DNA of 64,000 nucleotides from Bilabrum cf. latius (lineage: Eukaryota): contig OZ237749.1 in assembly GCA_965178125.1 (NCBI GenBank), positions 496,001 to 560,000 of the forward strand. Direction: 5' to 3'. Position numbers and translations under genes: made by a program. Of this stretch, positions 756-35,971 are shown one piece after another. Each line of letters opens with the position of its first letter. Position 1 is the first letter of the stretch. The notes beneath the pieces were generated by a model, which had not been told where the DNA came from, ran no database searches, and saw only the letters and a program-made list of their open reading frames with translations.

Positions 756-2037
756 TTACAAGCCCAGCCACGACTTCCATGAGAGCGCCTCCCTGTGGGC
801 TGCTTCGTCGTCGGCGGTCTGGTTGGGCATCTTGAGCGCCTTTCGGATCCACTTCTTGGCCTCGTCTTGGTGCCCCAGCTGGTAGTGGCACATGCCCAGA
901 TGCAGCACGTTCTGCTTCCAGAAGCCCGGCCTGAGGTCTTCCGCAGCCTTGAAGTGCTTCAGGGCCTCTTCGAACGTGCTGGTCGGGGGCTTCCGGAACA
1001 CCATCGCGGCGATGTTTCGTGTGACAGAGCTCATGTTGGAGACGTCGTAGCACCACCGCCCGAGCAGGTGCCTCGCGTTCGGGTCCTTTGGGTTGAGCTC
1101 GACCGCTTTGAGCCACTGGTCGCGCACACGGTACGATTTGGCGATGTAGTCGCTCGTGGTGGAGAACTCCCCCGTCGAGTTCATCGCAATGCCGTAAAAT
1201 CGCCTGGCAGACGCGCTGTTTTCGTTCAACATGACCGATGTGGCCGCGGTGCGCTCAGCGAGCTCCAGCAGCCGCTGGCGCTCGTCTGCCATCATCCTGT
1301 GGTCCTCCTGCGTTAGCTGAATGGCGGCGCGCGCCAGTCGCCACCCGAGCTCTGCAACAAAGAATCGCTCAGGGGCAGACATTGCATCGGGGTCCAGCGG
1401 CTCGTCGTCCGATGACTCAGCGACGGCATCGTACGCTCGCTTGCACGTCTCATACACAATCCGCCGGGTGTACTTGCTCGCTTCTCTTTCCTTCTCGTCC
1501 AGCTGCAAACAAGTAATTCAAACAACTTCAGGTAAACTTAAGTACAGCGAAAGTACAAGGCGTTGCGATGAAGCGCCACACCACACCGGCGAATCGTTTT
1601 TTCTGTTCCTGAAACGAAGGCAGTCTTCGACACAGGAAGAAGCAACGGCTGCAGATGGTGCTTTATTGCACATATGACACTCAACATTATAGCGCATCGC
1701 CTCAGACAACTCTCACTTCTTCAAGGGCATCTTCTGTTCGCTTGCCACGCAAGAAAGATTGGATCTTCTAGCCTATCGTCGGTCGGTCGGGCGTCGTGGA
1801 GGGCGGTCTCATGTCAGCAGACCAAGATGTTGAGCTTGATTTGGATGCTTCGTCCGTACAACGGATGTTAGCTGTTGTGCCAGCAGCCGCAATAGAAATC
1901 GCACCTGCGGCTGCCAATCCGACTGCGCTTACCTTTGCTGCACGGCCCAGCGCAGCCCTTCCGGCTGACGCTCTCCTGGTAAGCAACATTGAAGTTGATC
2001 TTAGCTGAGCAGAGATTCTGTTCGCAGACCGCATCAT
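756..2037 (-). CDS. Regulator of microtubule dynamics (RMDN/FAM82)-like TPR protein, 2 exons (2037-1717, 1502-756)
   Basis: Motifs WRLARA, KAVELNPKDPNARHLLGRWCY, PPTSTFEEALKHFKAAE. GT..AG intron 1716-1503 keeps the frame. In-frame TAG at 1768-1770; TAA stop. Confidence 0.8.
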
Positions 2038-2362
2038 ACTAGATAATTTGGTCCTGAAATGATGAGCCGCGCTTCGCCCACTGTTCGCGAATAGTTCCGG
2101 TTTTTACCAGACGAACAGTCACCTGGTGATCGGGTCGCTCGTCATCACAACCACGCAAATAGAGCACCCAGCTGGTTCACGGCACGCCAGCCCCCCTCAA
2201 AGCGAACCACCGCGCATCAAGTACGCCGCGGCGCGCATCCACCGACCGACCGCCGCCCTTGGAAACCGGCCTGGCCAACGTGACCGACCACTGGCACGAG
2301 GTGAGCCCGACCACCGATCCGACCGAACGGCAGCGGCGCTCGCTGCTGAGCCGGCAGGCTTG

Positions 2363-2819
2363 CAGGCAATGGTCGTTGGCCGCACCTGCTCAGGCAGTGG
2401 TCGTTGGCCGCACCTGCTCAGGCAGTGGTCGTTGGCCGCACCTGCTCAGGCAGTGGTCGTTGGCCACACCTGCTCAGGCAGTGGTCGTTGGCCGCACCTG
2501 CTCAGGCAGTGGTCGTTGGCCGCACCTGCTCAGGCAGTGGTCGTTGGCCGCACCTGCTCAGGCAGTGGTCGTTGGCCGCACCTGCTCAGGCAGTGGTCGT
2601 TGGCCGCACCTACTCAGGCAGTGGTCGTTGGCCGCACCTACTCAGGCAATGGTCGTTGGCCGCACCTGCTCAGGCAGTGGTCGTTGGCCGCACCTACTCA
2701 GGCAGTGGTCGTTGGCCGCACCTGCTCAGGCAGTGGTCGTTGGCCGCACCTGCTCAGGCAGTGGTCGTTGGCCGCACCTGCTCAGGCAGTGGTCGTTGGC
2801 CGCACCTGCTCAGGCAATG
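2363..2819. repeat. 28-bp minisatellite, about 16 copies (GGTCGTTGGCCGCACCTGCTCAGGCAGT)
   Basis: Head-to-tail units with period 28 (2371, 2399, ...), few substitutions, no spacers. Confidence 0.95.
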
Positions 2820-4651: not shown

Positions 4652-4951
4652 ACTTCTCGTGAATGAGAAGCTCGAAGTAGTTCAACAAGTTGCACTTCAA
4701 CATTATTAATGCATTCCCGCAGATTATCTGTGCGACGCTAGGAATTGAATGTACCGTATGACCGAAGGGTTTCATATTCTTACAATTTTCATTTCAAACA
4801 AGCAAACGCTGCTCGCCAACGTCCGTGCTGTGCTGGACTGCAGCTGTCGAGAGGCTGGGCGCATGGAAGCTGCATGGTACTGCCAGTAAATAGGGGAATG
4901 GCATTGCTACCGTCCCCACGACATGCTTCATACCATCTCTGGACTCCTTGC

Positions 4952-5867: not shown

Positions 5868-8800
5868 ATGCAGTGCCATCATATTTCAATCAGGACAATG
5901 GGAGATGCGAACGGCACAACTGAAAGCTACGAGCGCGCTCTTGGCCTTGAAAAGATGCGAACTGTTATGCAGGGAAAGGTGCCTGTCCTGGATCTTCGAC
6001 TGGATAATGTGACAGTCCTCGGGAAGAGGACCGCTAAAGCGGAAGCAACCAATGCCTTCTCCGTGCTCTGTCAATGCGGCGCAGCCTGCCGGGAGACGCA
6101 AGCAATTCCCTTACTTGATAAAGTGTCTGCCACTTTCCCCCACGGAAAGCTGACGTTGGTGAGACTGTGTTTCAGGAATGCCACAGTTGTATTTTCCCCG
6201 CAATCGCGCACCCGAGTTTTCGCATCGTTTGCTTGAATGGTAAGCCAAGCTACATCTGTTCTAACTCAATACCATAGGTAATTGCACCGCCAGGCTCCGG
6301 AAAAACCACTCTTCTCCGCGTTCTCTCCGGAACCATGCCCTTCGCACCCGCTGGAGATTCGGTCGACCATGGCAGCCCGCCAAGCGCGCCTACTGCCTAC
6401 GGCGAATACAAGCTAGGCGGTAAGTCCGTGCGAGAGCTAGGATCGACGAGGACGAGCCGCATAGTATCGCGCGTAGTCCAGGACGACGTGCACTATGGCC
6501 TTATCACGGTGCGGGAGACGGCCCAGCTGGCCGTCCGGCTGAGCAATCCCTCTGTCGAGCCAGGGACTGGGAGGGGGGGTCAGAGTGCCGCGCGTGAGGC
6601 GGGCATTCCTGAGGACATAGAGGAAATGTTCGGCAAGAAGGCTGAAGCGCTGATGGAGCTGCTGGGTATCGACAACGTGGCCGACACTGTGATCGGAAAC
6701 GAGACCGTGCGAGGGGTCTCTGGCGGAGAGGTGAGCAATGCAATGCAGTGCAGATCGGTTCTTTTGGTGCGAGCTTGCATACATTGTTCCTGCCTTGCTA
6801 TGCCCGCGCTTGGCTCTCCCGGGGCAGTCTCCTGACCCTTTCCTACAGAATAGCATCATCAATGCCGCTGACGACCCCCGTCCGTACCGCAGGCCAAGCG
6901 CGTGACCATTCTCGAAGCCCTCGCTACGCCCATGAGGGCCCTGGTCATGGACGATGCCTCTAATGGGCTGGACGGTGCCCGCACCAAAGACATCATCCAG
7001 CGCGTGAGGGGGTTTGCGCAGGCCTCCAACATCCCCGTGGTGATGTCCCTGCAGCAGCCGTCCAGGGAGGTGTTCGACCTCTTCGACCGAGTGGTGCTCA
7101 TGAGGCATGGTCGGGTGATGTACGAGGGACCTCGTGACGAAGCAGGCGCGTTCCTGGCGTCTATTGGCCTGGCCCCTCCGAAGCACCAGTCGGTCCCCGA
7201 CTGGCTGCTGGAGGTTGCCTCCAACCCCGCGCTCTTCCACCCCGAGGTGGAGGTGCTGCGGAAGGCGCACGAGAACGGTCTGGCCCAATTCGAGTTCAAG
7301 AAGCTGAACCAGCCCAAAGAGGATAGTGGGAATGCGGTGGCTAAGAGCTCCATGGGCGCCTCATCGGCATCTGCGCCCCGAGAGCAGCAGCCCCCTAGTG
7401 CTGCGAGCGGCAGTGCAGCGGCAAACTCCCACGTCGCTGTTTCGCCAAGCACCGTCCAGCTCGGCGAAAACGAGCACAAATTTACCAGGCAGTTGTCCAG
7501 TGGAGACGGCCAGCAACGGCCCTTTGATGCTCTTGAGGCGATGCACGAGCTCCCTATGTACACGACGGACGGCATCGCAACCGCGTTCGAGGAGCAGTGG
7601 CGGCAAGCGAGGCCGAAGGCTGGCTCTTCTACACCTCGAGGCAATGTGGAAGGGGCAACCAACCTACCCGGGGGCTACGTACCGGCCTCTGCAGTGCCTA
7701 CATCGCTGCCTGCTGCGGAAGCCTGGCCGGAAAGCCAGCTGTCAGAGTCGCTGTTCGGTGACGGGTATGCAACGCCACTGTGCACGCAGTTCGGCCTGCT
7801 CTTGTGGAGAGAGTTCACGCTGATGGGAAGGGATCTGGCCTTCCTTCGCAGTCACTTTGTCAAGTGCATCGTCATGGGGTTTCTGGTGGGCGGGCTCTTC
7901 TTTGATCTTGGTGACGAGGATTTCCAGTCGTGAGTCGGGATGAACTGCCCCGTCGCGCCGTCCACGTCGCGCAGGGTCTTCGCTGCTCTCCAGTCAGCGA
8001 TTCCAGTTGAGCCACAATATCCATCCTCGCAGGTTTGTGGCACTCAGTTTTTTTGGTGAGCTCTTGATCCCGTTTTCGCGCAGTGACTGTCTTGTGTGTC
8101 CTGTCTGACCTGCTGTCGCTTGAGAGTTTTCGTCTCTTCCCGACACGCAAGCGATATCCATTGAGGTATGATGAATTCCTGATCCACATGACGCAGCGGG
8201 TTTGTTCCTTGGTATGGGTAACTTCGCGGAGCTACCAGTAACGCTCAACAACCGAGCAGTGGCTGACAAGCAGGTGGTGGCCGGGATGTACAACCCAACT
8301 CTGTACGCGCTCGTCTCCAACCTCGCACACCTTCCAGTGGCGCTGCTCGAGGCCATCCTGCTGTGCACGACTATTTACTGGATGTCGGGATTTGCAAGCG
8401 ACGCGGAGCGCTTCGTTATCTTCGTGTTCGTTGCATTCTTGATCAACGTAGTCCTGGCAGCGTACTTCCGCTCGGTTGCTTGGCTGGCAGGCGACGGCGG
8501 ATTTGCGATGGCGCAGGGCATGGCAATCGTGCCGCTGGCACTGTTGATGGTCACCAATGGATTCATCGTCACGCTCGACAACCTGGGCCCGGCCCTTCAA
8601 TGGTTCTACTACATCAACCCGCTCTCATACATGATCCGCTCCCTTGTCGTGTCCGAGTACTCGGCTCCGAGGTGGGACACGCAGATCCCCGTCTTTGAGC
8701 AGGTCTAGTCAGGAAACGCAACGCAGCGCGTGCAGGTTGGAGCCCAGAGGGTCGGCGATGTGTACCTAGACACGTACGACATGCCGACGGATGATTACGA

Positions 8801-11060
8801 CTACTGGGTCTACACGGGGATCGCTGTGCTCGCGGCCGAGTGGCTTGCCTTCGTGATTGGCGGTGTGCTGGCATTCTCGTTGACACGGACGCACGGATCC
8901 AAGGGAACTCAGCGTGAAGAGCAGGAAGAGTCAGAGCTGGAATTGGCGACAGCTGCCTCAAAGGCGGTGAAGTAGAGCGTGTCCCGTGCCAGGGCTGCAG
9001 GCAAGCCTGACACTGCGGCCGATGCAGAGGTTCGTGCTATGTCAAGGGGAAGCAAGGCAGTGGCTGCAGCAGGTGAGGCATCCGGCGGGTCTGCGATGAT
9101 GTGGGAGAATGTCAGGTACACTGTCAAGCTGCCCAACGGCTCTGACAAGACTCTCCTGCACGGCATCTCGGGATGGGCCAAGCCGGGCCAGATCACTGCG
9201 CTGCTGGGCGAGTCGGGCGCGGGCAAGAGCACGCTGCTGGACTGCCTGGCGGGCCGCAAGAACCAGGGCAAGCTCGAGGGCTCGATCCTGCTGGACGGCA
9301 AGCCCGCCACTCGGGATGCCATCAACCTCGTGGCATCGTACGTGGAGCAGTTCGACCACCACGTGCCGCAGCAGACCGTGCGCGAGGCCCTCGAGTTTTC
9401 TGCCGATCTGCGTCTGCCGGCAAGCAAGTCGCCAGAGGAGAGGGCGGCTGTTGTAGACCGCGTGCTGGAACTTCTCGAGCTCGACGGCATTCAAGACCAG
9501 CGCGTGGGAACGCCTGGCTCTAGCGGCATCAGCGCGGGCGAGAGGAAGAGGCTGTCGATCGCGGTGGAGCTCGTGTCCCAGCCGAGGATCATCTTCCTGG
9601 ACGAGCCCACGACCGGGCTGTCCAGCCTTTAGGCCCTGGGGCTCATGAGGGCCTTGAGGAGGATCGCCGATGCGGGGCACTCGATCGTGGCCACGGTGCA
9701 CCAGCCCAGCGCCTCCATCTTCTTTTAGATGGACAGGCTGCTGCTGCTCCGGAGGGGCGGCGCCACTGTGTACTTTGGTCCCCTGGGTGACAAGGGCTCT
9801 GCCCTGACCTAGTACCTCGAGGGCTGCAAGGGAGTGCGGCCGCTACCCGAGGGAACAAACCCGGCCGACTGGATGCTCGAAGTCGTGGGCGAGGTTGGCA
9901 AGATGCGACTCAGGGAGGCAGAGAGAGGGCAGTCGCCACAAGGTGGCAACAACGGAGCGTCGGCCGCTAGAGCATCACCAACCGACGTGGAGGCAGCTGA
10001 TGGCTCCACGGTCGGATCGGTGCCAGATCTTGCCGATCAGTTCAACGAGTCTTCGGCGGCTGCGACAATGAAGGCGGGATTGGCCACCTTCCGATCCGGC
10101 AGTGGGGCCGCTGGCTTGGCCAACGCTGCTGCAGCGCCGGTTCGCCGCGGGTGGTGCTCTGAGTTTAGCGTGGTGCTCTGGCGAACCGCCGTGGTGTCAT
10201 TCAGGGACATCGACTACAACACGACCAGAATGATCGGCCTGCCGGTGCTGGCCGCCCTGTTCGGCCTGACCTTCTTTCAGATCGAAGACACGGACCAGTC
10301 CGGGGTGTTTTCCGTTATCGGTGCTGCATTCCTCGGCGGGCTCTTTGCTGCTGTGATCGGTATGAACCTCGCCATCGTGCCCACGATCACCACGCGGCCT
10401 TCCCTGTACCGCGAGATTGACGCGGGTTTCTTCCTGCCCGAGAGCCACTCGCTGGCTACCACGCTCGTGGAAGTACCATGGGTGACTGCCCTCATGCTGG
10501 TCTACACTGCGATCTTCTTCTTCATGCTGGGGCTAGACGAGAGCAAGTTCTGGTTCTTCTACGCGGCTGTGCTGCTGCTTGGTCACGTCTTTACGTTTCT
10601 GGGGCACACGCTGGCGGCAGTGTCCAACTCGCAGCAGATTGCGACCGCGATCTCGAGCGTGTTAATGGGAATATTCGCGTTGTTCGGCGGTTTCCTCGTC
10701 CCCGGGCCAAACATGGCCGACGGATGGGTGTGGATCCACTACATTAACCCGCTGCGGTACGGGATCGGGGCGCTGGTATCTCCGCCGTTCGAGTGCGGGG
10801 GCGTTCCGGATGGGGGGAGTGCCCGTGCTCAGGCCATCGCGGCTTTGCCTGCCGGCGAGTCGGGGCCGTGTGCAACGATTTCCGTCGTGAACGAGGGGCA
10901 GCTGCAGCCAGGGGTGCTCAAGGCGGACTTTGTGGAGTCCTTCTTTGGGTTTTCTTTCGAGCACATCGATTTCTACTTGGGCATGCTGGCCATGTACTGC
11001 GTGATTCTGGTGGGGATCAAGATGCTGGCCAACCGGTTCGTGAGGCATCAGAGCAGGTGA
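5868..11060 (+). CDS. Full-size ABCG/PDR-type ABC transporter, multi-exon
   Basis: NBD1 APPGSGKT and VSGGE..RVTI; NBD2 GESGAGKSTLLD, SAGERKRLSIAVEL, FLDEPTTGL; two TM domains. Introns at about 6159-6277, 6731-6891, 7930-8032, 8056-8196. In-frame TAGs at 8706, 8973, 9630, 9810; TGA stop. Start approximate. Confidence 0.9.
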
Positions 11061-11365
11061 AGGCAGGCCTTGCACTGTATCCCCCGGACACTCACCCCGG
11101 ACAGCTTTGCTGGAGCGCCTGCGTCCGGGGGATGGCCACCGTGAAGGGGGTGGCATCGGCAGGAGCAGGGGGCTGCGGATGATTGGGATGTAGAAAACTT
11201 GTGAACATGCATGAATCGCCTTGTCATCTCAAAAGAGCAACACAACAGAGGTTCCGCACTGCCAGTGCAGTGGACTCGCGCGGCGACCCACTGGCAGTGC
11301 CGGCGGCCCAGTTGCCGCTGGTCAGCCTCCGTGCGCGCCACCTGTCTCCGTGCACTCCAGCTGTA

Positions 11366-13596
11366 ATGAGTGCGATCGCAGCTGTAATTTCAGCTGTATG
11401 CTTTTGTACCTTCGCCGCTCGATACGTCTCGGCCAAGGCCCCACACGTCGTTGTGTTTTTGGTGAGTATTTGGATTTGTGTGTTCTACTACTGCATAATC
11501 AGAGGTAACCATTTGGGCAAGAGCACAACCTCGTGTGTACAAAATCAAACTAGTGCAGGTAGACGACCTCGGTTGGAACGACGTGGCTGGTTTCGCAGGT
11601 AATGACAGTCACATACACATGCCGAACATGCAGCAGTACGTTCGAGAGGGAGTGGAGCTGCGAAACTTCCACACCTTTCGGTTTTGCTCACCGACTCGTT
11701 CATCTCTCATGACGGCGCGCTACCCGTACCACATGGGCCAGCAAACGAACATGAACCTGAATCCTGCAGCTAAAATTCCATGCGGGATCCCGTTGAACTA
11801 TTCCTTCCTACCAGAATTGCTGCAACAAAAGGCGCCTTAGGGGAACAAACCTAGGTCCTTGTTTCTTGGGAAGGTGAGTTTGCTGTGCTGGATCGGCCTG
11901 ATTTGTACAGTAGAGAGCTCCCGTGCAGCAGCTTGTGTTGAAGCTCTACCCTTTGTCCGTATTTGCACCAATGATTTTCGCAGTGGCACCTCGGTTTTTT
12001 TAAGTCGGACTACATCCCCACTCGACGGGGATTCGACCGGGCCCTTGGCTTCACGCAAGGCGGCGAGACGCATTCTACACACGTCGCCCCCTACGGCCAT
12101 GTACCTCTCTGGTGGCAGCCGGAGAACAACGACACACACCCTGAGAACGACGTGCTCATCGACCTGTTCAACAACTCGCGCGGCGAGCCTTTCAATCCCC
12201 TCGGGCAAGGCCTCAACAACACCTACTCTGCGGACCTCTACGCATCCGAGTTCGAGAACGTCGTGTCGCAGCATGACCCGTCCGTGCCCCTCTTCGTGTA
12301 CTACTCAAACCACGACGTCCACGTCCCCTTCGAGGCACCTCAGCGGCTCTATGACCTGTACGAAGGCGTCATCCAGGACGAGGTCAGGAGGGTGTACGCT
12401 GCAATGATGACGGCGACGGATGAGGCGTTCGGGCGCATGACACGGGCGCTGGCAGCGAGAGGCATGCTGGATGACACTGTGATCATGATGATGAGCGATA
12501 ACGGTGGCAATACCAAGGGCTGCAGTGCGGATAAGAGGGGTGGGAACAACTGGCCGCTGCGGTGAGAGCATCAAGAGGCGCGATTCCGTGCTGCTGGGGA
12601 CCTGCGGACGTGCGGACGTGCGTGCGGCCCTGGTGCTGCTGCACTAGTCTGGCATGCAAGCACAGACGCACGGTGCTTCCCCCTTGCCTGTTTGGCTGCG
12701 TTTTGAGTCCCTTCCATGAATCCGTGTTGCTTGCTGTTCCTACCTTTCTTTGTCGCAGAGGCGCGAAGTTCACCCACTGGCGAGGAGGCACAACGGTCCC
12801 GGCCTTCGCTTGGGCGGGGAGCCGGACAGGGCTGCTGCCTGAGTCGCGGCGCGGGTCCATCTACGAGCACCAGCTGCACGCAGTAGATGTGTACCCCACG
12901 ATCGCGAAGATGTACGGGGTGAGCGACCAGGACCTGAAGGAGTCCGGGCCTTTGCCTCCTGATGGGGTCGATTTCTGGCCCGCGGTGTCAGGAGAGAGCG
13001 GTACCCCGGCGCGAAACGAGACGGTTATCAACGTGTGGACCCTTGGGGATGGAACACTAACGGGGGCCCTGGTGCAGGGCGACTACAGGCTGTACATGGG
13101 CTTCCCGGGGACTCCGGACGACTGGGGACTGCCTTCCGACTAGAACGCATCCGAGCCAGTGCCCCCAACCCCGAAAGGCGTGTACGTCTCGCACGGGATC
13201 CGGCGCATCCCATGCGGGCCTGACACCGAGACAGCTGACGGCTCCGGAGATGCACCCTTCAGCAGCGGCGGTGGGGAGCCCTCCCGCCCGTGTGACGAGT
13301 CCCCCTGTTTATTCAATGTGAAGGAGGACCCGGGGGAGCACACCCGCCCGTGTGACGAGTCCCCCTGTTTATTCAATGTGAAGGAGGACCCGGGGGAGCA
13401 CACCGACATCGCCTCTCAGCACCCGGACATTGTGCAGGCCATGGTGACCCGCATGAAGGAGCTGCAGAAGAGCGAGGTCTCCGTGGAGGCCAGCGGCCTC
13501 TGCCCATCGCCGCCCCCGGGGCACAAGAAGTGGCCGGACAGCTACGATTCAACGTACAAGACCGGGTTCTGGCAGCCTTGGTGTGATGGCCTCTGA
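11366..13596 (+). CDS. Arylsulfatase (ARSB-like), multi-exon
   Basis: PHVVVFL|VDDLGWND, formylglycine motif CSPTR, GK|WHLG, SDNGG, NWPLR|GAK. In-frame TAGs at 11838 and 13141; TGA stop. Confidence 0.9.
13283..13404. repeat. Exact 60-bp tandem duplication inside the sulfatase CDS
   Basis: RPCDESPCLFNVKEDPGEH is encoded twice at 60-nt spacing. Confidence 0.95.
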
Positions 13597-13816
13597 TGCA
13601 CGGCACAACCATTGAACTACCATGCTGCCGCACGCATCCGTACGAGCATACGCGGGGCAACAGCAGCCTGTCCACATCCTGGTGCATGTGCATCAAAGTG
13701 TGAAGATGAAGATAATTGTGCCTCCCGCAAGACTTTGTTGCGCGACGCGGTCCAGACCTGCGCTGCTTCGAATCAAGTAATGGTCGTGGTGTTAAACTGA
13801 GTGGAGGCTTGTGCCA

Positions 13817-16960: not shown

Positions 16961-17134
16961 TTTGCACAGGTTCAATTCGATTCTGCAGCCTCGCAAACCA
17001 TCTGCGCGAGCTATGTCACCATCCATCCCTAGACCATGGTGCTAAAGTACCATTATTACTAGCAGTACGCATATTCTGCGTGCATTTGTCTCTCATGTCT
17101 ACTGTCTGAGTGGTTGCAGCGTGTTCAGCACCGA

Positions 17135-17526
17135 TCACAGGAGGAAAGTGTCCTCCTTGATGGGCAGCAACATTCGGTGAGTAGTTGGCCCAAAGAGATT
17201 CTCCTTGATTTCATCATCAATCTCTACTCTCTTGGGGTTCTTCAGCCATGACTTGACAGAGCTGCAGAGTTGGAAAGTTGGATCACTTGTAGCTGGGTAT
17301 TGACGGTGAACTAGCGACGCAGCGACACAATCAGATGCATTTACCTTGTATCATGCCACTCGCTGAGCACAACAATTCGCTGGGGCTCATGCTCGCAGCG
17401 AAACGCCGTACTCTATACGAATCCACGAGCATCGATCGCAACTTTCCTCATGCTCTTAAGCATGCGGAAAACCGCCCGCTCTTTGCCCTCGAGTACAAGA
17501 CGCTCGGTTAAGACTCGGACTGACAT
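17135..17526 (-). CDS. Small ABM (antibiotic biosynthesis monooxygenase)-like protein, 2 exons
   Basis: GFV*STAFRCEHEPQRIVVLSEWHD|..SVKSWLKNP; GTAAAT..CAG intron; TGA stop. Confidence 0.5.
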
Positions 17527-20699: not shown

Positions 20700-20811
20700 T
20701 TGGGAAGGAACAATAAATGGACGTACTGGGCGACGATTTGTGCTATTGCTTGCAGTCCTGTGAAGATGCACTGTTCAAAATCTGGTTTGATCGGCAGCCC
20801 GATTGGATCGG

Positions 20812-22180: not shown

Positions 22181-23017
22181 TCACTGCCTGCCACCCTCCT
22201 GCCCATCGGCCCCGTCGTCTGCTGCGCTGTCTGCTTCTGGCGCAGGCGACGATGCAGCCGGCTTGCCCGATTCCACGGGGAGCCTGGGCCCTCCCCTACG
22301 CCTAGGGCCAGTCAACTGTCTTGCCTATGCCTCAGCCAGGGTGGGATTCTCGGGAATCCCGAACACGATCTGCCTCGTCGGGTCGTCCTCGCGCCTGGGC
22401 AGCTTGCCAGAGAGCATGGCAGTCAGCTCGCCGATACCCTCGTGGGGCACCTCGGGGTCATCCGGGTCTCCCACCAGGCCCTTCGTGGGTGCCTTCATGA
22501 ACTTTCGGATGCTCTCCACCTCGAGGTCGTACGCGGCCGCGCGCTCCCTCTCGAGGCGCGACTCGACGTCCACGGCGATTTGGTCCCTGCGAGCCTTCTG
22601 CTCCGGGGTCAAATCGTACCGAGCGATGTCTCTCTCGCGCTATCGTTCCAATTTTCGCTGGCCCTGAACTCGTTTCTCCATCAAGGCGGGCATGCCAGTG
22701 GCGTGCACCGCTCCGCAGACTGCAGCGAACGAGTACGGCTCAGTCTGAGCCAGGTTGGACAGCACTGCTCGATTCAAGCGAATCCCACTGTCAGCAAGAC
22801 AGCCCATGAGCTCACTATACCGCAGGCCTTGCTGTTTTGCCGCGGCATTGATCGACTGAATCCACTCCTTTCGCATCCGTCGGCGGTGCTGCTTGCGCCC
22901 CGCGTACGCATATTGCAAAGCTTTCTCGACACGGCGTTTCGCAACCCTGTAGCAATTCTTAGACCTACCACGGTAGCCTTTCGCTAATCTCAAGATCTTC
23001 TTGTGCTTGGGCTTCAT
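22181..23017 (-). CDS. rplT: Organellar (likely mitochondrial) ribosomal protein bL20 with C-terminal extension
   Basis: KHKKILRLAKGYRGRSKNCYRVAK..KALQYAYAGRK..WIQSINAA..LNRAVLSNLAQTEPYSF. Continues across TAGs at 22640 and 22325 to TGA 22181. Confidence 0.85.
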
Positions 23018-23266
23018 GACTACGGCCCCTAGTTACGATCGATGTTAATTGTAGTCCGACTATACTCGTATGCAAACGGAACACAAGCGTAATCACCCAC
23101 ACGTTGGATTCTATCCACAAGTTCAAACAATAGGACGTCTCGAATAGGACGATGTGGACGCTTCCAGTGCTTGAATTTCGCGTGCTGACGGTCGTGAGGC
23201 AAACAGTCGTTGTAAGGTGTACCTTCAGCAGAAAATAACCATCAAAAAATCGAGCAAGCGCAGCGC

Positions 23267-26200
23267 TTAGTGCAGGTCTTGCGAACGCAGGGGTTGTCCC
23301 TAGTCGCGCCTATCAGTCTCCTTCATGCTCACCCCTTCCTCCTCCCAAGTCCCGCCGGCTCCGCCCACCCCGACCCCGGAGATGTCCCCGTCATCAATCC
23401 CCACGAAGCTCGGGTCCACCTGCGAACCAGCCACATGAGCCCCGCCAGCACTGCCCCGAATGCGCCCCTACCCCTAGCCCTAGCCCCAGATCTAGCCCCT
23501 ACCTGTCGCAAACCTGCTGCGCCTGGCAGACTGGGTATCCACGAGCGAAGGGGGTGCCGTCTCTTGCAGCCGACGCGAGGACGACGACCCTGCCGCCGCA
23601 GACCGCCTGCCAGTGCTCACCTTCTCGCCGTCCACGTACACTTCCGCATCCGGGTCACCAAGAACTCTGACGTCACTCGATGATCCGCCTCGCTTGGATG
23701 CTCCGCCGGTGATCACTTCAACGACCGAGGACCGGCGGCGGGACCTACGGCCACGGCGCGAAGCACCTGCTCCGTTGCGGTGCTCGCTCTCTTTCCCATC
23801 GCCAGCCGCTGCTGCCCCGTCGTCCAGCTGGGTCGTCGTCACACGGACACGGGGCCCGCGGGAGGACCCCGACTTAGAAGGGGACCGGTCAAACTCAACG
23901 GCGATTTCTATCTCGTCGTCGCGCTCGTCTCTGCCCGTAGTCGCCGCGGCGCTCCGCTTCAGCTTCAGCTGTCGCCGGGCCTACCTCTCTTGTTCCCTGG
24001 CACGCACAACCGCGAGCTTCGCCTCCGCGGTCTCGGCTTGTTCCCTGGCACGACGAGCGTCCTTCCGCGCCCTGGCCGAACGCTGCTGCTCCTCTTCCAC
24101 CAGACCCAGGAAACGCTGCGATTCGCTCGCGCCCTACCGCAGCTCGGACTCCAGCTCGCCGCAGCGCAGGTTCGATTCCCTGAGCTGCTGCTCCAGCTCG
24201 GTGCACTGCATTGCAAGGTCGTCTCTCTCCCCGGTCAGTCGCCTGCACGTGCCCGCCAGCTTGTCGTGGAGCGCCCGGATCCGCTTCGCCTGCTCCCTCA
24301 ACTGCGTCTTCTCGCCGACGGCTCTCGATCGCTCACGCTCGACATCGAGGAGCTTCTTGCGAAGGTCCTGTTGCATGCGCTGGAGCTCCTCTCCTTGTTC
24401 CCTGAGGGAGCTGGCCCTCTGCTCGGCGTCCTGCAGCTGTCCCTGGGATTTGCGCAGGGAATGCTCGCCCTCCTCGAGCAACTGCTCCGCGCGCTCCTCG
24501 GCGGCCGATGCTCGGCTCCTCGCCTCTGCCGCCTCTGTCCTGGCCCGAATCGCCTCTGCGTCCGCCCTCCGCGCATCGTCACTGACCTCCCGCAGCGCAA
24601 GTTCCGCTTCTTCTGCGCGGCGCCGCAGAGCCTCCGCGTCGGCCCTGGAGTCGTCCGCCCGAGCCGCTTTGGCACGCGCCTCCTCCAGCTCGTCCATGGC
24701 CTCGGCCGCCTATGCCTTCGCACGGGTCAGCTGCAACTCGGAATCGATCAGCCGCACCTCGAGGGCTTCCACCTGACCCCGCAGGTCGGCCGTCTCGACG
24801 TCCCTGACGGCGTCGTCGGCAAACGAGCCCCTCGAGGGGGGGCTGCCCCCGCGGCTGACCGAGGCCAGGGGAGCTCGAAGCTTGCGGGCGCTGCCGCCGG
24901 GAGCACCCGCCTTGCCGAAACCGCTGCCGCTACTTTGGCCCTCGACGAAGCTGCCGAGCCTGGATCCCCCCTTGTTCCCTGGTTTGCGACCAGAGGTCGC
25001 AAGAGCAAGTGCCACCCTCGAGTGCGCCGAGCCCAGCGGAGTGGAGGGGCTGTCGGCGCCGCGCGCAGCGGAACCTACCGTCAGTTTGCCGAGGGGCATC
25101 AGATCCGTGCCGCCCTCGGTCCTACCGCCGCCCCCGCTCTCGCTCTCGCTCTGGCTCTCGCTGCTACCAACGCCTCCGCCGATCCCCGACCGACCCCCCA
25201 CAGTGGACGCGCCCAGCCCCTTGATCCGATCCTGAAGCTCCTTCAGCGCCCTCCTGCACTCCTCCAGCTCCGCGCCCTGTTCCTCCACCATCTCCAGGAG
25301 CAGCGGCCGCTGGTGGAGGTGCCTCTCCAGCTCAGGGCACAAATCGCGGAACATGGACAAGGCGCGGCCCACCGCGGCGCCGGCGCTGTAAGGCTCTTCG
25401 TCGCCCGTTCGATCTTCATCTTCGAATTCGCCGGGCTCCTCGCCCCTCTCGACCGCCGCAAGCGCCTCGCGCAGCCTCCCCGTACCCGCGCCGCTGTCCC
25501 CCGCACGCAGCCCCGCCCCCGCCCTGGCCCTCAGCTCGGCAGCCGCCCGTCCGCGGGCCGCGACGGGCCCGGGACGGGCCCCCGCCCCCGAGTCGCCCAA
25601 TCCACCGGTGGACTGCATCCACCGGTCGTGCGCCGTGGCACCTTCCTCCTCCCGCTCCGAGGCAGCCACGAACGCCGCCACCACTCGCTCCAGCCCATTC
25701 GCCAGCGCCTCTGCTGTTCCCTGGGCGTCCTGCTCCATGGCATCTAGCCGCCTGCACTTGGCCTGCAGGCTGTCCCGCTCTTTGCTAGCTCCGCTGGCCT
25801 CGCGCTGCAATGCAGTGATCCTTGCCCTGGCGGCAGCGAGCTCCTGCTGCGCGGTCCGGAGCCGCCTCGCCTGCGCGTCCTGGGACTCGCGGTCTGAATG
25901 TTCCGCTTGGCGCCGCGCATTTTCGGCCTTGGAGGCCCGCGCCCTGGCCTCTTCCAGAGCGGTCTCAAGCCTCTAGCCGTCCGCCTGCAGCGCCCTAACC
26001 TCCTGCTCCTGCGCCTCGACTCGTCCCCTGAGCCCAGCCATCTCCGAGCGAAGAGCCTCTTCCCGGCGCCGCGCATCCTCACCTTCAAGTTCCGCTTCCC
26101 GGCGCGCCGTCTCCACCTCGGCCGAGGCGGCAGCTCTGGCATCGGCTGCCTGCTCGCTCGCGAGGCGCACCCTCTCCCCCGCTTGTTCCCTGAGGGCCTC

Positions 26201-27349
26201 TGCCTCCCGCTGCAGTGCCCGCAGCTCTTCCACGGACTAAGTTGCCTTCTCGCGGGCCCGCTTTGCTTGTTCCCTGGCGATGGCCGCGTCAGACTCGGCC
26301 TTGTCGGCCCGAGCCTTGGCGCTGCGGAGCTCTGCCTCCTACCGCGCGGCGCCGGCGCCGCGCGCTTGTTCCGCAGCGACGGAGGCGTCCCGGTCCCGCT
26401 TCGCGGCGGCACGCAGCTGCGACACCTCGTCCCTGGCCCTCTGCGCCGCAGCGCGGTGGCTCTCCGCCTCTGCGCGGGCCGAGCCGACCTCCCTGTCCAC
26501 GTCCCTGCGGTGCTCCTCGCGCACCTGCCTGATCCGATCCTCGTGCCTCTGACGCTGTTCCCCGGCCGCTTCCCGCGACGCCCTCAGTTCCCTTTCCAGC
26601 CTCCTGTTCTCCGATTCGAGTCGGGATATCTTCTCTCGAATCAGGGGCGCCGTCTGCCGGAGCGTTTCGCGGGTGGCGCTCGCCTGCACTGCACTGCTGC
26701 GCAAGTAGGGGCTGCCATGTCTGCTGCTGCTGCTGTTGCTGCTCAGCAGTGCCCCGCTTCCGACCGGCGGTGACCGAAGCCCTCGTCTCGCTGGGGTGTA
26801 CTATGACTGTGCGAGCGCGTGCCGGCCAGGCAGTTGCTCGCGGTTCGCGAGGGGGGTGCCGCCCATTGCCCTCGATTCGACATCGATGCCGGCCGAAGAT
26901 GCTCCCAAACCGCTCGGTGCTTGCATGGTTTCAGTGGCGGGTGAAAGACCCGCTGCAGCGAGCGACTGCCGCAGGCGTGCCCCGCTCCCGCTGGGCGCCG
27001 GGCTCACACCGCCGGACCGAGAGATTCTACCTTCAAATGATTCGTCTCTCATCATGTAAGACGATTTACCTAAATCCTGCTCGTCGACCGCAGCAGGCCC
27101 CGGCGTGAAAGGCAGCCGCCTGCCAGAGTCTGCAGCCAGCCGTTGCTGCTCAAAACGCCGGGAGGATTCGGTGTGCCCCATCGACTCTATGTCCCCGCGC
27201 TCCGACGAAAACTGTGTCTGATCAAGTTCATCTCCATCCAGCTACGTTGGCGTCGTACTGGGCTCCGTAGGCCCCACATCGCCAGCCTAGTCTTGACGAG
27301 GGAGACGACCGGACCGGGTGGATGGATCGAGGGGTGGCGACTCTGACAT
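23267..27349 (-). CDS. Large coiled-coil protein (about 1360 aa with TAG=Gln)
   Basis: Six ORF fragments are in one frame, separated by TAG. E/R/A-rich heptad-like sequence; TAA stop. Confidence 0.7.
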
Positions 27350-27714
27350 TCGAAGCAGCTACTGCAACAGCTTAGACTAATAACGTAAACCTCTACCACC
27401 AAACGATTGAAGGCTCACTGGAAGAGGTGCATGAGCGACGCCGGGCAGCAACAGCCATAGAATCATCACCGAACGTTCGTTATCACAAATACTTTGTGAA
27501 AACACACTGTATAATAAGCAGCTGATCGGCAGTGGCATCATCAGTCAATCTGTGGACAAAGGCAATATATTTTCAGATCATGTAAGAAGGATTGACTATT
27601 GGTATTTAGTACCAACTAGTTTCGAGCTGATCAGGGGTAAATTGCCGGATGTAAGCCTCCGTTTGAACGCCGATTGGTCACACGAACCGCATCGTACTTC
27701 TGTTGTATCGCAGC

Positions 27715-32420: not shown

Positions 32421-32725
32421 GACAAAGTTGGCCAGCGCAGGGAGCGGGACCAACTTGGCCATCCGTTTGGATCGGTGGAACTGATGCTCCTCTGGTGCGG
32501 GGGTGACCTCTTCGTGGGTAGAGTCTAGTCCGTCCACTACTTAGCACCTAGGTGCTAAGTTTTGCTTGATTGCACCTCGCCCAACTCGTGGATACTGACA
32601 GGAGCGGGGTCTGGTTGCGTCAATGTTGCTACGTAAAGTGATTTGAAAGTTGATTCTTGTTTTCAATTGTGACCTTCACTTACGCACCAAACGTCAAAAC
32701 AGGATCCGCAATGTCACATCCTGGA

Positions 32726-35700
32726 TCACCACACGCTCTCATCGCTTAGGCCAGATACCGCCAGCCAGGCATCCCAAATGCGTGGCCAGTACTTGCTGAT
32801 CATTCCAGGGGACAAACGTCCAGCAAGTCCTTCCGCAAAACAGAAACAGAGGCAGCCACAGCATAGATCTGCCCACTTGTCCATTGCCTCGTCGGAGACC
32901 TGCAGCCAGCTTTGGATGTCGGCCAGTCGCACCAGCATGTTGGACACGGCAGATGCCTTGATGGCTTCCAGGGCGCAGTCGAAGTCCTGCACATCAGACG
33001 GAGGCCCATCGCTCGCCGCCTCCTTTGCTGCCTTACGCCCACTCTTCCCCTTTCCTTTCCCCCTACCCTTCCCGCCCCGTGCAGCCCATACCCCCTCAGC
33101 AGCATCTGCCTCGCGGTCTCCGTCCGTGCTCGTTGCACCTTTCGCTGGCTGCAGAGGACGCACAGCCTCCAAGACAGCCCCTACACTAGCTCCAGCCACC
33201 TTCAGCTTGCTTCCATTCCATCTTGATCGCAGAAATGCGAGAGCAACATCAGCGCGCTCCTCATTGGACTTTGGGCCTATCCCTAGTGGTCGGCCTGCCC
33301 GTCCGCTTGATGCCGCTGCTGCCCCGGCCCCAGTAGCTTGCTCTGCCAGCATGGCCTCCTTGATCCAATCGGTTGCTGCGCCGCCGTACACCGAGCCGGT
33401 CGCGATGGATACTAGCAGCGCACCGTTGGATCGCAGCTGCTCGGCTGCGTCAGTGGCCCTTTCAGCCGCCGCTGAGCCCGCTGCGGAGCTGGCTGGTCCA
33501 CCGGACCCGGGCAGGTCTAGTAGGGTGCGCAGCCTAGCATCCAACTCGTGCAGCCGTTCGAGTTTTCCCCAACCAGCTTCAGCCCGCTCCCATTTGCCCC
33601 ACTGCCGCAGCCGACGCATGACCGCTGACCTCGCCAGAGCGCCGCACTTGTCTGAGCTGATCCCTCGGGCCAAAACGGAGCCAACCCTGACCTTGCCCCG
33701 CAGCACCGTTTCCCGACCGGCTTCTTGCCCTCCCGCTGATTGCTGCGACTCGAAGGCCTCCTGAACGATCCTGAGATACTCATCCATCCTAGGGTCTGAC
33801 CTGCTGGCTGCTGCTACTATCTCTGCGGCAGCACCGCCGACAGCTTCTTCCGTGGATTGTGCGCATTCTTTGCTCCCTGCTGCAGCACCTGCGCCACCTC
33901 TGGCAGCGGCGGCAGGACCGCGCGCCTTTGCGCGGTGCAAATCATCAAGTAGCTTGTTCGTTGCGGACGATTTCAAAGTACCAGCCAGTTGAGACAGGAG
34001 CCCGCGCGCCTTCTCCCTGCACGCTCGTACTACGACGTACCAAACCGACTTGAGCTTCTGCAAGCCGATCACCCTTAAGTGCCCTGGCATCGACAGTTTC
34101 TATTCAGCCAATGCGACGAGCTTCAGGCCAGCCGGATCTTTGGCAGCGTCACCAGCAACCGAGGATGCGGAGGGGTCTGCACCTTGAGCTGCTGCTGCTG
34201 CTGCTGCTGCTGGATCGCCTGCAGATGGCGCTAAGAAGTACAGGACGCGCCCCTCGAGCCCGTCCATCTACCTGGTCTCCTTGACCACCTTTGCCACGTC
34301 GCCGATCGGAATCACGTCGCAGCCTACATGCTTTAGTCCAAAGGTGGACGACACGGATGAGGCAACCGCAGGGCTTACGCCACGCTCCAAACCCTTGATC
34401 ATGAATGGGGAATTAGGATCACCATCTACCGTCGGAACCATGGTGATCACGCAGAGAACGGATGGTGATCCGGCGGGAAAGCGCTCCACATGCAGTGACG
34501 TGGGCTGCAGGAACTCTAAGCAGACGGTGAGTCTGAGCTCCATGAGCATCCACAGGAATTGCTCCCGCCTCGTCGGAAACTCTGGCTCTTTGGGTCCCGA
34601 GCCCGGAATGACTGGAAGGAGATTTCCCGCGACAGGAGGCATCGATGAGAGCACTTCGAGGTGCGCTAGCCACTTGTGGGCCAGCGGGGCGGCCACCATG
34701 GTCCTGGACGACGTCTCTGCTTCCGCCGCTAGCAAGTCGTCTTCGTCGCGGAAGGCTATGTGAACGTTCTTGGACCCCGCAATGAGGATGCACCGGTTGA
34801 CGCTGTCCAAGACCTGATCGTTGGTAGGACTCGGTGGCAAGGGGTGCTCTGGATGCCTCATCACGGCGAAGTGGCCTGCCTCCCCGTTGGCCTTGCCGGT
34901 CAGCAGCACGGACTCGGCTGTCTCCACTGGGGCGGAGAAATACTTTGCCCAAGCTGGCTACTCCTTTTCAGTGCTAGACGCACCTGCAGCTCCTGCTGCT
35001 ACCTAGCTCTCCTTCTTCTCCTCCTCGGCGACACCAGCACCAGCGCCAGCACCAGCACCAGCGCCAGCGCCAGCGCCAGCGCCAGCACCTGCGTCCTTCT
35101 TGAGAGAGGAACCATCGTGTGGCAGCGTGTCATCATCGTCTCCCACCCCGCCCGTGAACTTCTTCATGCCGCTGACTGCAACTCGGAGCCACAATCTATC
35201 GCCGACCCTTTTCTCGGGGTGCACCGTACAGGTATTCCCGACTTTCTTGGGGACCATCGCGGGCTGGGGCTCTGCGTGACCGGCACTATGACCTCGCTTG
35301 CGCCCTTTGCCGCCAGATCTGCCCGGGCCACTCCCGGCTTTGGCGCGCACCATGCGGGTGACTTGGACGATCTCGGGTGCGAGCAGTGATGCAGCGATAG
35401 CCTTGCTAGCGTCTGGGGTCTTCGGGATGCGGACTAGAAGCTTAGCGCCATCAGAGCTACCATCAGTAGGATAGCACCACGACCAAGGGTGCTTCTACCC
35501 TGGCATATCCTGCCACCGCGATGGATCGGTTCTTTTTGATGATGAGATCCGTACTAACTACAGGTCATCGAAAGGCAGCCTACAGATTTCCCTAGAGCAA
35601 AAATCGGAAAGAGTGGCAACTGGCATTGTGCGGGCCTCCAGAATAGTAAGGCCTCGTGGCACCCTGTCCCTTAACTCCTTCGAGCTCGCGTACAGCTTGT

Positions 35701-35971
35701 CGTCCGGCTCTCGCGTGGCCCCATACACTTTGGCGTCATGAACCAGCACAATCTTAACCGTATTATCATCAAGCAGCTGAATTGGCATGCTTGAGACCGT
35801 AGAAACAATCTTCACATTGGTATTGGTGGCCAAGAACTCTAGGAGAGCACTAGCTGATTCTCCAGCGTGCTTGTCTGCTTGAGCGTGAGAAAGCAGTCTG
35901 CATGCCTCAAGCTCGCATTCTACAAGGGATTGCAAGGAAGTATCAATACCCCTCGTGAGAGAAATCGCCAT
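32726..35971 (-). CDS. RNA-ligase-like (covalent nucleotidyltransferase fold) protein, about 1081 aa with TAG=Gln
   Basis: Four ORF fragments in one frame. Motif I-like GKANGEAGH, GSKNVH, motif III-like CLEF, motif IV-like LEGRVLYF, motif V-like QKLKS. Confidence 0.55.

What the first reader, a model, noticed from the sequence alone, without database searches (positions are those of the whole stretch)
756..35971. Host nuclear code reassigns TAG to Gln while TAA stays a stop
Seen: housekeeping genes (SF1, PRORP, bL20, ABCG, sulfatase, RMDN) contain in-frame TAGs, and I found no in-frame TAA/TGA in their exons. SF1 has ATG-TAG-(CAG)8 at 17924-17895. Genes end in TAA (756, 4952, 23267) or TGA. 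Known: most eukaryotic UAR reassignments change UAA and UAG together; UAG-only Gln is rare (reported for the fornicate Iotanema). Inference: an independent UAG-only reassignment in what looks like a bicosoecid/stramenopile flagellate.
Basis: partly seen in the sequence, partly recalled or inferred. Interest (0 to 1): 0.9.

Follow-up and report, generated by a model that had tools for sequence, protein, structure and literature searches.

The report
Protist reads TAG as glutamine
This stretch of a protist's nuclear genome, and the virophage and retrotransposon embedded in it, only make sense if the stop codon TAG is read as glutamine while TAA and TGA still end genes, a rare kind of genetic-code change seen here in a new lineage.

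Summary
Long, homology-supported genes (ABCG, sulfatase, PRORP, SF1, bL20, MAPEG and others) are open only if TAG is sense. TAA and TGA end all 24 ORFs examined.

Contigs from three runs skip eight GT..AG introns that the DNA-like run keeps, yet carry the TAG codons unchanged. So TAGs are neither spliced out nor edited.

The amino acid is glutamine:
- An integrated mavirus-like virophage in the window and nine related metagenome loci all need TAG as sense.
- Codon-level alignments put CAA/CAG or TAG opposite TAG far more often than anything else. Gln beats the next residue by 45 log-likelihood units.
- In the host ABCG gene, a variant contig differs by eight synonymous changes plus TAG to CAG.
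- A poly-Gln tract reads ATG-TAG-(CAG)8.

Not testable here, because no genome is held: tRNA-Gln(CUA), eRF1 and 18S.

The nearest named relatives are Cafeteria (ABCG, SF1) and a labyrinthulomycete, a weak pointer to Bigyra.

The code type is already known from Iotanema, Protocruzia and phyllopharyngean ciliates. This is a new member, apparently the first in a stramenopile, with a code-matched virophage lineage.

The parts
756..1517 (-). RMD1-3/TPR gene, no TAG, ends in TAA at 756-758
   Evidence: Pfam PF21033 E 1e-27; stop TAA
4952..5401 (-). MAPEG-family gene with in-frame TAG at 5245-5243, ends in TAA
   Evidence: Pfam PF01124 E 3.4e-11; TAG position; stop
5900..11060 (+). Full-size ABCG/PDR-type transporter gene. 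Introns at 6159-6277, 6731-6892, 7930-8032 and 8056-8196. Five in-frame TAGs at 8706, 8973, 9630, 9726 and 9810. Ends in TGA.
   Evidence: Pfam; introns skipped by contigs of runs X5-X7; spliced CDS open for 1,545 codons; variant contig reads CAG at 9630
11300..13596 (+). Sulfatase gene. Introns at 11462-11558, 11874-11983 and 12562-12758. TAGs at 11838 and 13141. Ends in TGA.
   Evidence: Pfam PF00884; joints; spliced ORF of 631 aa
13796..16960 (+). PRORP (protein-only RNase P) ORF with 11 in-frame TAGs, ends in TGA
   Evidence: Pfam PF16953; match to Arabidopsis PRORP1 structure 4g23; TAG list; X5 contig 13716-16788 without differences
17135..17526 (-). Small 102-aa gene with high contig depth. 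Intron at 17262-17344, in-frame TAG at 17415-17413, ends in TGA.
   Evidence: Joint bridged by contigs of X5 (depth 419, 188 nt or more each side) and X6 (depth 44); CDS reconstruction
17724..20774 (-). SF1/branchpoint-binding protein ORF with 8 in-frame TAGs, including ATG-TAG-(CAG)8 at 17924-17895. Ends in TGA.
   Evidence: Pfam PF16275 and PF22675; sequence; relatives P0243/P0244
20812..22128 (-). ORF of unknown family with 5 TAGs
   Evidence: X7 contig 20845-22010 without differences
22181..23032 (-). bL20 ribosomal protein gene with 2 TAGs in its C-terminal extension, ends in TGA
   Evidence: Pfam PF00453 E 6e-35; X6 and X7 contigs about 22123-23183 without differences
23267..27544 (-). 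Long coiled-coil ORF with 16 TAGs, ends in TAA
29424..32420 (+). Pyruvate phosphate dikinase ORF, one TAG at 32397 in the C-terminal tail, ends in TGA
   Evidence: Pfam; homologs
32726..36553 (-). 1,275-codon ORF of unknown family with 7 TAGs
37923..60662 (.). Integrated mavirus-like virophage, GC about 0.41-0.48, bounded by 225-nt inverted repeats. Carries MCP, penton, ATPase, pPolB (frameshifted), primase-helicase and rve integrase. 65 in-frame TAGs in 11 ORFs.
   Evidence: Pfam; inverted repeats; codon counts; relatives L001-L009
43830..49256 (+). GC-rich Ngaro-type retrotransposon inserted in the virophage. Split direct repeats: A1 43830-44007, B1 48795-48924, A2 48924-49101, B2 49127-49256. 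12 TAGs in its 1,519-codon ORF.
   Evidence: Repeats; RVT_3 hit; weak tyrosine-recombinase hit; codon counts

Best explanation
The window is nuclear DNA of a unicellular eukaryote whose cytoplasmic translation reads UAG as glutamine and keeps UAA and UGA as the only stops. This is the pattern of NCBI table 15 (recalled).

Everything translated in that cell follows the same rule: host genes, an endogenous mavirus-like virophage and a retrotransposon nested in it.

Shown here:
- TAG is a sense codon.
- It survives into spliced transcripts.
- It is exchanged mainly with CAA/CAG.
- TAA and TGA terminate.

Inferred, not shown: UAG is decoded by a tRNA-Gln with anticodon CUA, probably derived from tRNA-Gln(CUG), together with an eRF1 that has lost affinity for UAG. 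This is the mechanism proposed for Iotanema (PMC5304391, section 9 read).
For: (1) ORF structure. TAG-sense opens 42 ORFs of 300 aa or more, against 17 under the standard code. In the virophage parts it is 9 against 0, with no gain from TAA- or TGA-sense.

(2) Codon counts. 59 in-frame TAGs in 9,058 host codons, 65 in 4,532 virophage codons and 12 in 1,519 retrotransposon codons, with no in-frame TAA or TGA.

(3) Transcripts.
- Contigs of runs X5, X6 and X7 skip eight GT..AG introns that X1 keeps.
- The same contigs that carry ABCG splice joints run through the TAGs at 8706 and 8973.
- A spliced contig (depth 419 in X5, 44 in X6) covers the TAG at 17415-17413.
- 32 of 42 TAGs in 6000-25999 lie under listed pieces with 0 differences, 14 of 42 in X6/X7 alone.
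- No base difference is listed at any TAG except 9630.

(4) Identity of the amino acid.
- All 9 related virophage loci from metagenomes (51-70% MCP identity) also need TAG as sense.
- Opposite window TAGs in 11 virophage genes, the closest group shows TAG 13, Gln 13, Thr 5, Lys 4 and others of 53 columns.
- L002 shows Gln 8, TAG 7, Lys 5 and others of 43 columns.
- L005 shows Gln 6, TAG 4 and others of 28 columns.
- Gln has the best log-likelihood in all three comparisons, summed -267.4 against -312.7 for Glu and -339.3 for Ser.
- Over all pairs, codons opposite TAG are TAG 788, CAA 175, CAG 151, then Lys 82 and Glu 59, of 1,666.

(5) Host genes.
- The X6 variant contigs of ABCG differ at 9 sites: 8 synonymous third positions and TAG to CAG at 9630.
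- SF1 has ATG-TAG-(CAG)8.
- An unnamed SF1 relative (72% identity) has Gln at the window's TAG codon 94.

(6) Stops. 24 of 24 ORFs end in TAA (11) or TGA (13). Where both ORFs are complete and aligned to their ends, the C-termini of the TAA/TGA-bounded virophage ORFs fall within 0-8 residues of their orthologs.
Against: - In the ABCG nucleotide-binding domain, the three TAG columns are not Gln-rich among 120 distant homologs. Column 486 has S 52, A 39, Q 5. Column 518 has V 20, L 16, S 15, Q 11. Column 546 has D 25, N 18, E 16, Q 8. On those three columns alone Ser would fit better.
- In SF1, 2 of 3 TAG columns are Thr and Glu in the 72%-identical relative.
- The strong Gln evidence therefore comes mostly from the virophage genes, and its transfer to host genes rests on shared ribosomes.
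- The run kinds are the tool's guesses. X5 is flagged 'probably DNA' and has flat depth, so its unspliced contigs (PRORP, SF1) may be genomic.
- No tRNA gene lies in the window or in L001-L005.
- No genome is held, so the decoding tRNA and eRF1 are unseen.
- Only 24 gene ends were examined, so occasional use of TAG as a stop is not excluded.
Confidence: 0.87

Rival explanations
1. TAG is a sense codon but stands for another amino acid, such as Glu, Lys, Ser, Leu or Tyr. UAG is read as Leu in a rhizarian and as Ser in Scotinosphaera.
For: ABCG domain columns favour Ser or Ala over Gln. Two SF1 columns are Glu and Thr in the close relative. Lys and Glu are the next most frequent partners of TAG.
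Against: - Gln wins by 20, 12.5 and 6.5 log units in the three virophage comparisons. Ser is 72 units worse overall.
- CAA is the commonest non-TAG partner although it is two mutations from TAG, which argues for amino-acid conservation rather than mutational nearness.
- TAG to CAG is the only non-third-position change among 9 differences in the ABCG variant contigs.
- TAG sits inside a poly-Gln run.
Confidence: 0.05
2. TAG has two meanings: Gln inside genes and stop near transcript ends, as in Condylostoma or Blastocrithidia. Alternatively it is read through only partially.
For: Several genes have a TAG within a few codons of the TAA/TGA stop, namely MCP ...N-TAG-TGA and PPDK TAG six codons before TGA. 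Those genes could end at either codon.
Against: - None of 24 ORFs needs TAG to end.
- Orthologous virophage ORFs end together at TAA/TGA. TAGs five codons from the end in relatives align with Gln in the window (ATPase 'XAYLL' against 'QAHIV'). The MCP's last TAG aligns with Gln in L002.
- In-frame TAG is as frequent as off-frame TAG (59 against 62/52), which is not expected for a leaky stop.
Confidence: 0.06
3. No code change: the TAGs are artefacts. They would be pseudogenes, assembly errors, unrecognised introns, or sites edited in the RNA.
For: One apparent in-frame TAG (6275-6277) is indeed an intron end. The virophage pPolB is frameshifted.
Against: - Only TAG, never TAA or TGA, interrupts 13 or more long conserved genes.
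- Four runs under three organism labels give identical sequence at the TAGs.
- Homolog alignments pass through the TAG codons without gaps. At ABCG column 486, 1 of 120 is a gap, and MCP blocks such as LDVD-TAG-TNGS are conserved.
- Contigs with splice joints retain the TAGs, and no U-to-C change is listed except the one variant contig.
- Nine independent metagenome loci show the same rule.
Confidence: 0.02

Closest known systems
Iotanema spirale (Fornicata) nuclear code: UAG = Gln, UAA and UGA = stop
   Same: Same assignment pattern. The same mechanism is proposed here (tRNA-Gln(CUA) plus altered eRF1) (PMC5304391, abstract and section 9 read).
   Different: A different supergroup: here the nearest named relatives are stramenopiles. 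Iotanema rests on a transcriptome; here genomic DNA and spliced contigs are available. The eRF1 T32G-type change could not be checked.
Ciliates with UAG-only Gln: Protocruzia tuzeti and two phyllopharyngean lineages
   Same: UAG reassigned to Gln without UAA (PMC11687900, Discussion passages read).
   Different: These are ciliates. This window has GT..AG introns, GC of about 60%, and Cafeteria-like best hits. No ciliate hit was named among those examined.
UAR = Gln codes (table 6 type: many ciliates, Hexamita, Streblomastix, Ulvophyceae, Amoeboaphelidium)
   Same: A stop codon is captured for glutamine.
   Different: Here TAA is never in frame (0 against 22-75 off-frame) and ends 11 of 24 ORFs. 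The two UAR codons are therefore uncoupled.
Cafeteria burkhardae EMALEs with nested Ngaro retrotransposons
   Same: A low-GC mavirus-like element with inverted terminal repeats sits in a GC-rich host. It is interrupted by a GC-rich retrotransposon with A1-[ORFs]-B1A2B2 split repeats (PMC8547959, passages read).
   Different: Its genes are full of in-frame TAG. The Cafeteria genome paper describes a non-standard code only for the mitochondrion (10.1101/751586, passage read). The closest MCP relatives are unnamed metagenome loci, not IMG/VR virophages.
TAG-recoded bacteriophages (code 15, e.g. Crassvirales)
   Same: A virus whose genes contain in-frame TAG read as Gln (PMC9523058, listing and abstract only).
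   Different: Those phages differ from their hosts' code. Here the virophage matches its host's nuclear code, and neither it nor the five longest relatives carry a tRNA gene.

Membership tests
Nuclear code with UAG = Gln and UAA/UGA = stop (table 15 type) | In-frame UAG in conserved protein-coding genes, retained in mature mRNA | tested here: met
   59 TAGs in 11 host ORFs. Spliced contigs carry them. 32 of 42 lie under listed pieces without differences.
Nuclear code with UAG = Gln and UAA/UGA = stop (table 15 type) | UAG positions correspond to Gln in homologs | tested here: met
   Strong in virophage genes: Gln has the best likelihood in 3 of 3 comparisons. In host genes the support is limited: TAG/CAG in the ABCG variant, Gln at SF1 codon 94 and the poly-Gln context. 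It is neutral or contrary at 3 ABCG and 2 SF1 columns.
Nuclear code with UAG = Gln and UAA/UGA = stop (table 15 type) | UAA and UGA still terminate and are absent from reading frames | tested here: met
   24 of 24 ORFs end in TAA or TGA. C-termini coincide with orthologs. TAA-sense or TGA-sense opens no virophage ORF.
Nuclear code with UAG = Gln and UAA/UGA = stop (table 15 type) | A tRNA-Gln with anticodon CUA | not testable with these tools
   No tRNA in the window or in L001-L005. No genome is held.
Nuclear code with UAG = Gln and UAA/UGA = stop (table 15 type) | eRF1 N-domain change that weakens UAG recognition | not testable with these tools
   eRF1 is not in the window and no genome is held.
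Bicosoecida / Bigyra (host identity) | Phylogenetic placement by 18S or many proteins | tested here: inconclusive
   The best named hits are Cafeteria roenbergensis for ABCG (35-36%) and SF1 (44%, rank 2 of 150), followed by Mucochytrium quahogii at rank 12 and Pelomyxa at rank 18. The best PPDK hits are bacterial. No rRNA and no tree.
Mavirus-like endogenous virophage (EMALE type) | Virophage MCP, penton and packaging ATPase, plus pPolB, primase-helicase, rve integrase and terminal inverted repeats | tested here: met
   Pfam hits PF21915/PF22031, PF21507, PF03175, PF19263 and PF00665. 225-nt inverted repeats, 99% complementary. The ATPase hit is weak (AAA_22, E 7e-4), and the cysteine protease was not identified by Pfam.
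Ngaro (DIRS-order) retrotransposon | Split direct repeats A1-[ORFs]-B1A2B2, RT/RNase H, tyrosine recombinase | tested here: met
   Repeats 100% identical in that order. RVT_3 hit E 4e-6. The tyrosine-recombinase hit is only E 1.2e-4, below the Pfam cut-off.

The most novel reading that the evidence does not exclude
This would be the first nuclear genetic-code change in a stramenopile. A whole environmental lineage of mavirus-like virophages has adapted to it, and by implication so have the giant viruses they parasitise. Relatives of the virophage occur on 9 contigs whose names fall under 7 dataset prefixes, and all require TAG = Gln. The code would then act as a host-range barrier and as a sequence signature that ties uncultured virophages and giant viruses to this host lineage.
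Probability: 0.45. Interest if true: 0.78.

Novelty: new member of a known kind. Interest (0 to 1): 0.62.

Why it matters
UAA and UAG almost always change meaning together. Each new case where only UAG is captured tests ideas about how eRF1 and a tRNA(CUA) can separate the two codons.

A case outside ciliates and metamonads, with genomic DNA in hand, would let the tRNA and eRF1 be read directly. That was not possible for Iotanema.

There are practical consequences too. Standard-code gene prediction will shatter this organism's genes and those of its virophages. The predicted SF1 relatives P0243/P0393 stop exactly where the window has Gln. IMG/VR searches also missed the virophage lineage.

A code-matched virophage, retrotransposon and host trio also offers a natural test of whether code changes limit viral host range.

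Tried and rejected
- **Whole genome:** not held, so no Codetta-type scan and no search for tRNA, eRF1 or 18S.
- **tRNA scan:** nothing in the window or in L001-L005.
- **IMG/VR scans:** the MCP alone and the 3-sequence alignment found no relative.
- **P0121 and P0122:** these MCP relatives show Q at 5 and 2 of the window's TAG sites. I set this aside because their Q may itself be a pipeline translation of TAG. Codon-level loci were used instead.
- **ABCG distant homologs:** the TAG columns are uninformative or favour Ser/Ala.
- **PRORP against PDB:** the match confirms the family, but the TAG lies at the edge of the alignment.
- **PPDK as a host marker:** rejected, because the best hits are Bacteroidota and Rhodothermota at 43-47%.
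- one PDB query was out of frame and returned an error. It was not repeated.
- **Run kinds:** no listed holder is on record as RNA. The kinds of X5-X7 are guesses, and their RNA nature is inferred from the splice joints only.
- **TAGs without listed cover:** 10 of the 42 TAGs in 6000-25999 lie under no listed X5-X7 piece: SF1 17921, 17828 and 17801, five coiled-coil TAGs and both sulfatase TAGs. 248 pieces were not shown, so this says nothing either way.
- **Literature:** searches found no report of a nuclear UAG reassignment in a stramenopile or of TAG-recoded virophages. Supplements were not consulted, and subscription journals are not covered.

Full report
**What the window is.** The first 37 kb have a GC content of about 0.54-0.70. 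They carry eukaryotic housekeeping genes. Pfam finds an ABCG/PDR transporter, PRORP, SF1, PPDK, RMD1-3, a sulfatase, bL20 and a MAPEG protein.

From about 37.9 to 60.7 kb lies a low-GC element with Sputnik/mavirus-type major and minor capsid proteins. It also has a protein-primed polymerase B, a primase-helicase and an rve integrase. It is bounded by 225-nt inverted repeats. A GC-rich retrotransposon with split direct repeats in the order A1-[ORFs]-B1A2B2 interrupts it. This nested arrangement is the one described for Cafeteria EMALEs and Ngaro elements (PMC8547959, passages read).

**The observation.**
- Under the standard code the window has 17 stop-to-stop ORFs of 300 aa or more. With TAG as sense it has 42.
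- In the two virophage parts the figures are 0 and 9. Making TAA or TGA sense instead gives 0. In the GC-rich part, TGA-sense also lengthens many frames, as expected from base composition, so the low-GC element is the clean control.
- In 11 host ORFs (9,058 codons) there are 59 in-frame TAGs, about as many as in the two other frames (62 and 52).
- TAA and TGA occur 22/30 and 164/159 times off frame and never in frame. The zeros follow from how the ORFs were cut; the point is that frames stay open for up to 1,545 codons.
- ATG-TAG-(CAG)8 is at 17924-17895 as stated.

**Are the TAGs spliced out or edited?** One stretch of the window was found in public runs. Contigs of four runs were laid on 6000-25999.
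- Run X1 follows the genome without joints at the intron sites.
- Runs X5, X6 and X7, from two other studies under other organism labels, skip eight short GT..AG intervals. Four are in ABCG, three in the sulfatase, and one is on the minus strand at 17262-17344.
- The run kinds are only guessed by the tool, and X5 is flagged as probably DNA. The joints show that these runs hold processed transcripts.
- Removing the introns gives an ABCG frame open for 1,545 codons with five TAGs. The sulfatase frame is 631 codons with two TAGs.
- The removal also shows that the 'TAG' at 6275-6277 is an intron end, not a codon.
- The contigs that carry ABCG joints continue through the TAGs at 8706 and 8973.
- The joint at 17261/17345 belongs to a 102-codon gene with an in-frame TAG 68 nt upstream of the junction. 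It is bridged by contigs with at least 188 nt on each side, at depth 419 (X5) and 44 (X6).
- Of the 42 TAG codons in the laid stretch, 32 lie under listed pieces of X5-X7 with no differences. 14 lie under X6/X7 alone. 248 pieces were not listed.
- No difference is reported at any TAG but one.

**Which amino acid?** Distant homologs were of little use.
- Among 120 ABCG homologs, the three TAG columns in the nucleotide-binding domain are variable and, if anything, favour Ser or Ala.
- The MCP has two close protein relatives with Q at most TAG sites. Those Q may themselves be pipeline translations of TAG, so I did not count them.

A metagenome scan gave nine loci with 51-70% MCP identity. All nine also need TAG as sense: in the five loci over 5 kb the longest ORF grows from 206-294 to 620-646 codons. 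They have no GC-rich flanks.

Codon-level alignments of 11 virophage genes gave these results:

| Comparison | Columns | Partners opposite window TAG |
|---|---|---|
| Closest group | 53 | TAG 13, Gln 13, Thr 5, Lys 4, others |
| L002 | 43 | Gln 8, TAG 7, Lys 5, others |
| L005 | 28 | Gln 6, TAG 4, others |

- With substitution tables taken from the same alignments, Gln is the best of 20 residues in each comparison, by 20, 12.5 and 6.5 log units.
- Summed, Gln scores -267.4, Glu -312.7 and Ser -339.3.
- Conversely, window Gln codons face TAG in 9-11% of columns in the two closer comparisons and 3.6% against L005. Every other residue stays at or below 2.6% in the closer comparisons.
- Over all pairs, which are not independent, the partners of TAG are TAG 788, CAA 175, CAG 151, Lys 82 and Glu 59, of 1,666.
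- CAA is two changes away from TAG. Its prominence speaks for conservation of glutamine rather than mutational nearness.

**Host genes.** The evidence here is thinner but consistent.
- In run X6 the ABCG region is represented by variant contigs, either an allele or a close paralog. They differ at nine sites: eight synonymous third positions and T to C at 9630. That last change turns the TAG into CAG.
- SF1 carries a TAG at the head of a (CAG)8 run and others in its Gln/Pro-rich tail.
- An unnamed SF1 relative (72% identity over 213 residues) has Gln at the window's TAG codon 94, but Thr and Glu at codons 142 and 262.
- That relative's predicted protein, and that of its cluster mate, stops exactly where the window has a Gln codon. 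This would fit a TAG read as stop by a standard-code gene caller, but I could not see the DNA.
- Host, virophage and retrotransposon are translated by the same ribosomes, so the virophage result carries over by inference.

**TAA and TGA.**
- Where both ORFs are complete and aligned to their ends, virophage ORFs bounded by TAA/TGA end within 0-8 residues of their orthologs.
- TAGs near the ends are read through. The ATPase ends 'XAYLL' in relatives and 'QAHIV' here. The last MCP codon is TAG here and Gln in L002.
- A dual stop/sense role for TAG is thus not needed, though 24 gene ends cannot exclude it.

**Mechanism.** No tRNA gene is in the window or in the five longest related loci, and no genome is held.

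The inferred mechanism is the one argued for Iotanema (PMC5304391, section 9 read). A tRNA-Gln with anticodon CUA pairs with UAG but not UAA. It is one mutation from tRNA-Gln(CUG). It would act together with an eRF1 that binds UAG poorly, such as a change in the GTS motif.

**Who is the host?**
- The best named ABCG hits are Cafeteria roenbergensis at 35-36% identity.
- In a search of 1.84 billion representatives with the SF1 core, rank 1 is an unnamed environmental protein and rank 2 is Cafeteria (44%).
- The other named proteins among the top 20 are Mucochytrium quahogii (rank 12) and Pelomyxa (rank 18).
- PPDK points to bacteria and is useless for this purpose.

This is a pointer to Bigyra or bicosoecids, not a placement.

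**Novelty.** UAG-only reassignment to Gln is known from four places: Iotanema spirale, Protocruzia tuzeti and two phyllopharyngean ciliate lineages (PMC11687900, Discussion passages; PMC5304391, abstract).

Eight full-text searches found no nuclear UAG reassignment in a stramenopile and no TAG-recoded virophage. The one virophage paper touching the subject notes only an ochre-suppressor tRNA (PMC6905037, passage).

I therefore file this as a new member of a known kind. Its added interest is that an environmental virophage lineage shares the host's code.

**Confidence.**

| Claim | Confidence |
|---|---|
| TAG is sense, TAA/TGA are stops | about 0.95 |
| The residue is Gln | about 0.9 |
| tRNA(CUA)/eRF1 mechanism | inferred only |
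| Stramenopile host | about 0.6 |

Noticed in passing
window 37923-60662: An integrated mavirus-like virophage of about 17 kb without the insert. It has 225-nt inverted terminal repeats (99% complementary) and a 300-nt tandem duplication just outside and across the left repeat (37393-38015). Its pPolB reading frame is broken into two overlapping ORFs, which suggests decay.
   Followed up: partly
window 43830-49256: An Ngaro-type retrotransposon lies between the penton gene and the next virophage gene. Its split direct repeats are 100% identical, so the insertion is probably recent. It shares the host's GC content and its use of TAG.
   Followed up: partly
L001-L009 (metagenome loci): Nine contigs, whose names fall under seven dataset prefixes, carry virophages related to the window's. 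All are readable only with TAG as sense, none has GC-rich flanks, and the five longest have no tRNA gene. IMG/VR held no relative.
   Followed up: partly
window 17135-17526 (minus strand): A small spliced gene of 102 codons has by far the highest contig depth in the laid stretch (419 in X5). Its family was not determined. It looks like an ABM/Dabb-type small alpha-beta protein, from recall only.
   Followed up: no
window 61257-63998: A 914-codon ORF running off the window's end, with 9 TAGs, intermediate GC (0.48-0.55) and no Pfam match. It lies just outside the virophage's right repeat.
   Followed up: no
window 2066-3734: Tandem repeats of about 30 codons fill two overlapping plus-strand frames, antisense to the 623-codon ORF at 2810-4681. 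They are probably non-coding on the plus strand.
   Followed up: no
window 9096-9748: The DNA-like run's assembly breaks into short contigs here, and variant contigs appear in X1 and X6. This suggests close ABCG paralogs or alleles that share this nucleotide-binding-domain segment.
   Followed up: partly
window 6159-12758 and 17262-17344: All eight introns seen are short (83-197 nt). The seven plus-strand ones begin with GTGAG and end in CAG or TAG.
   Followed up: yes
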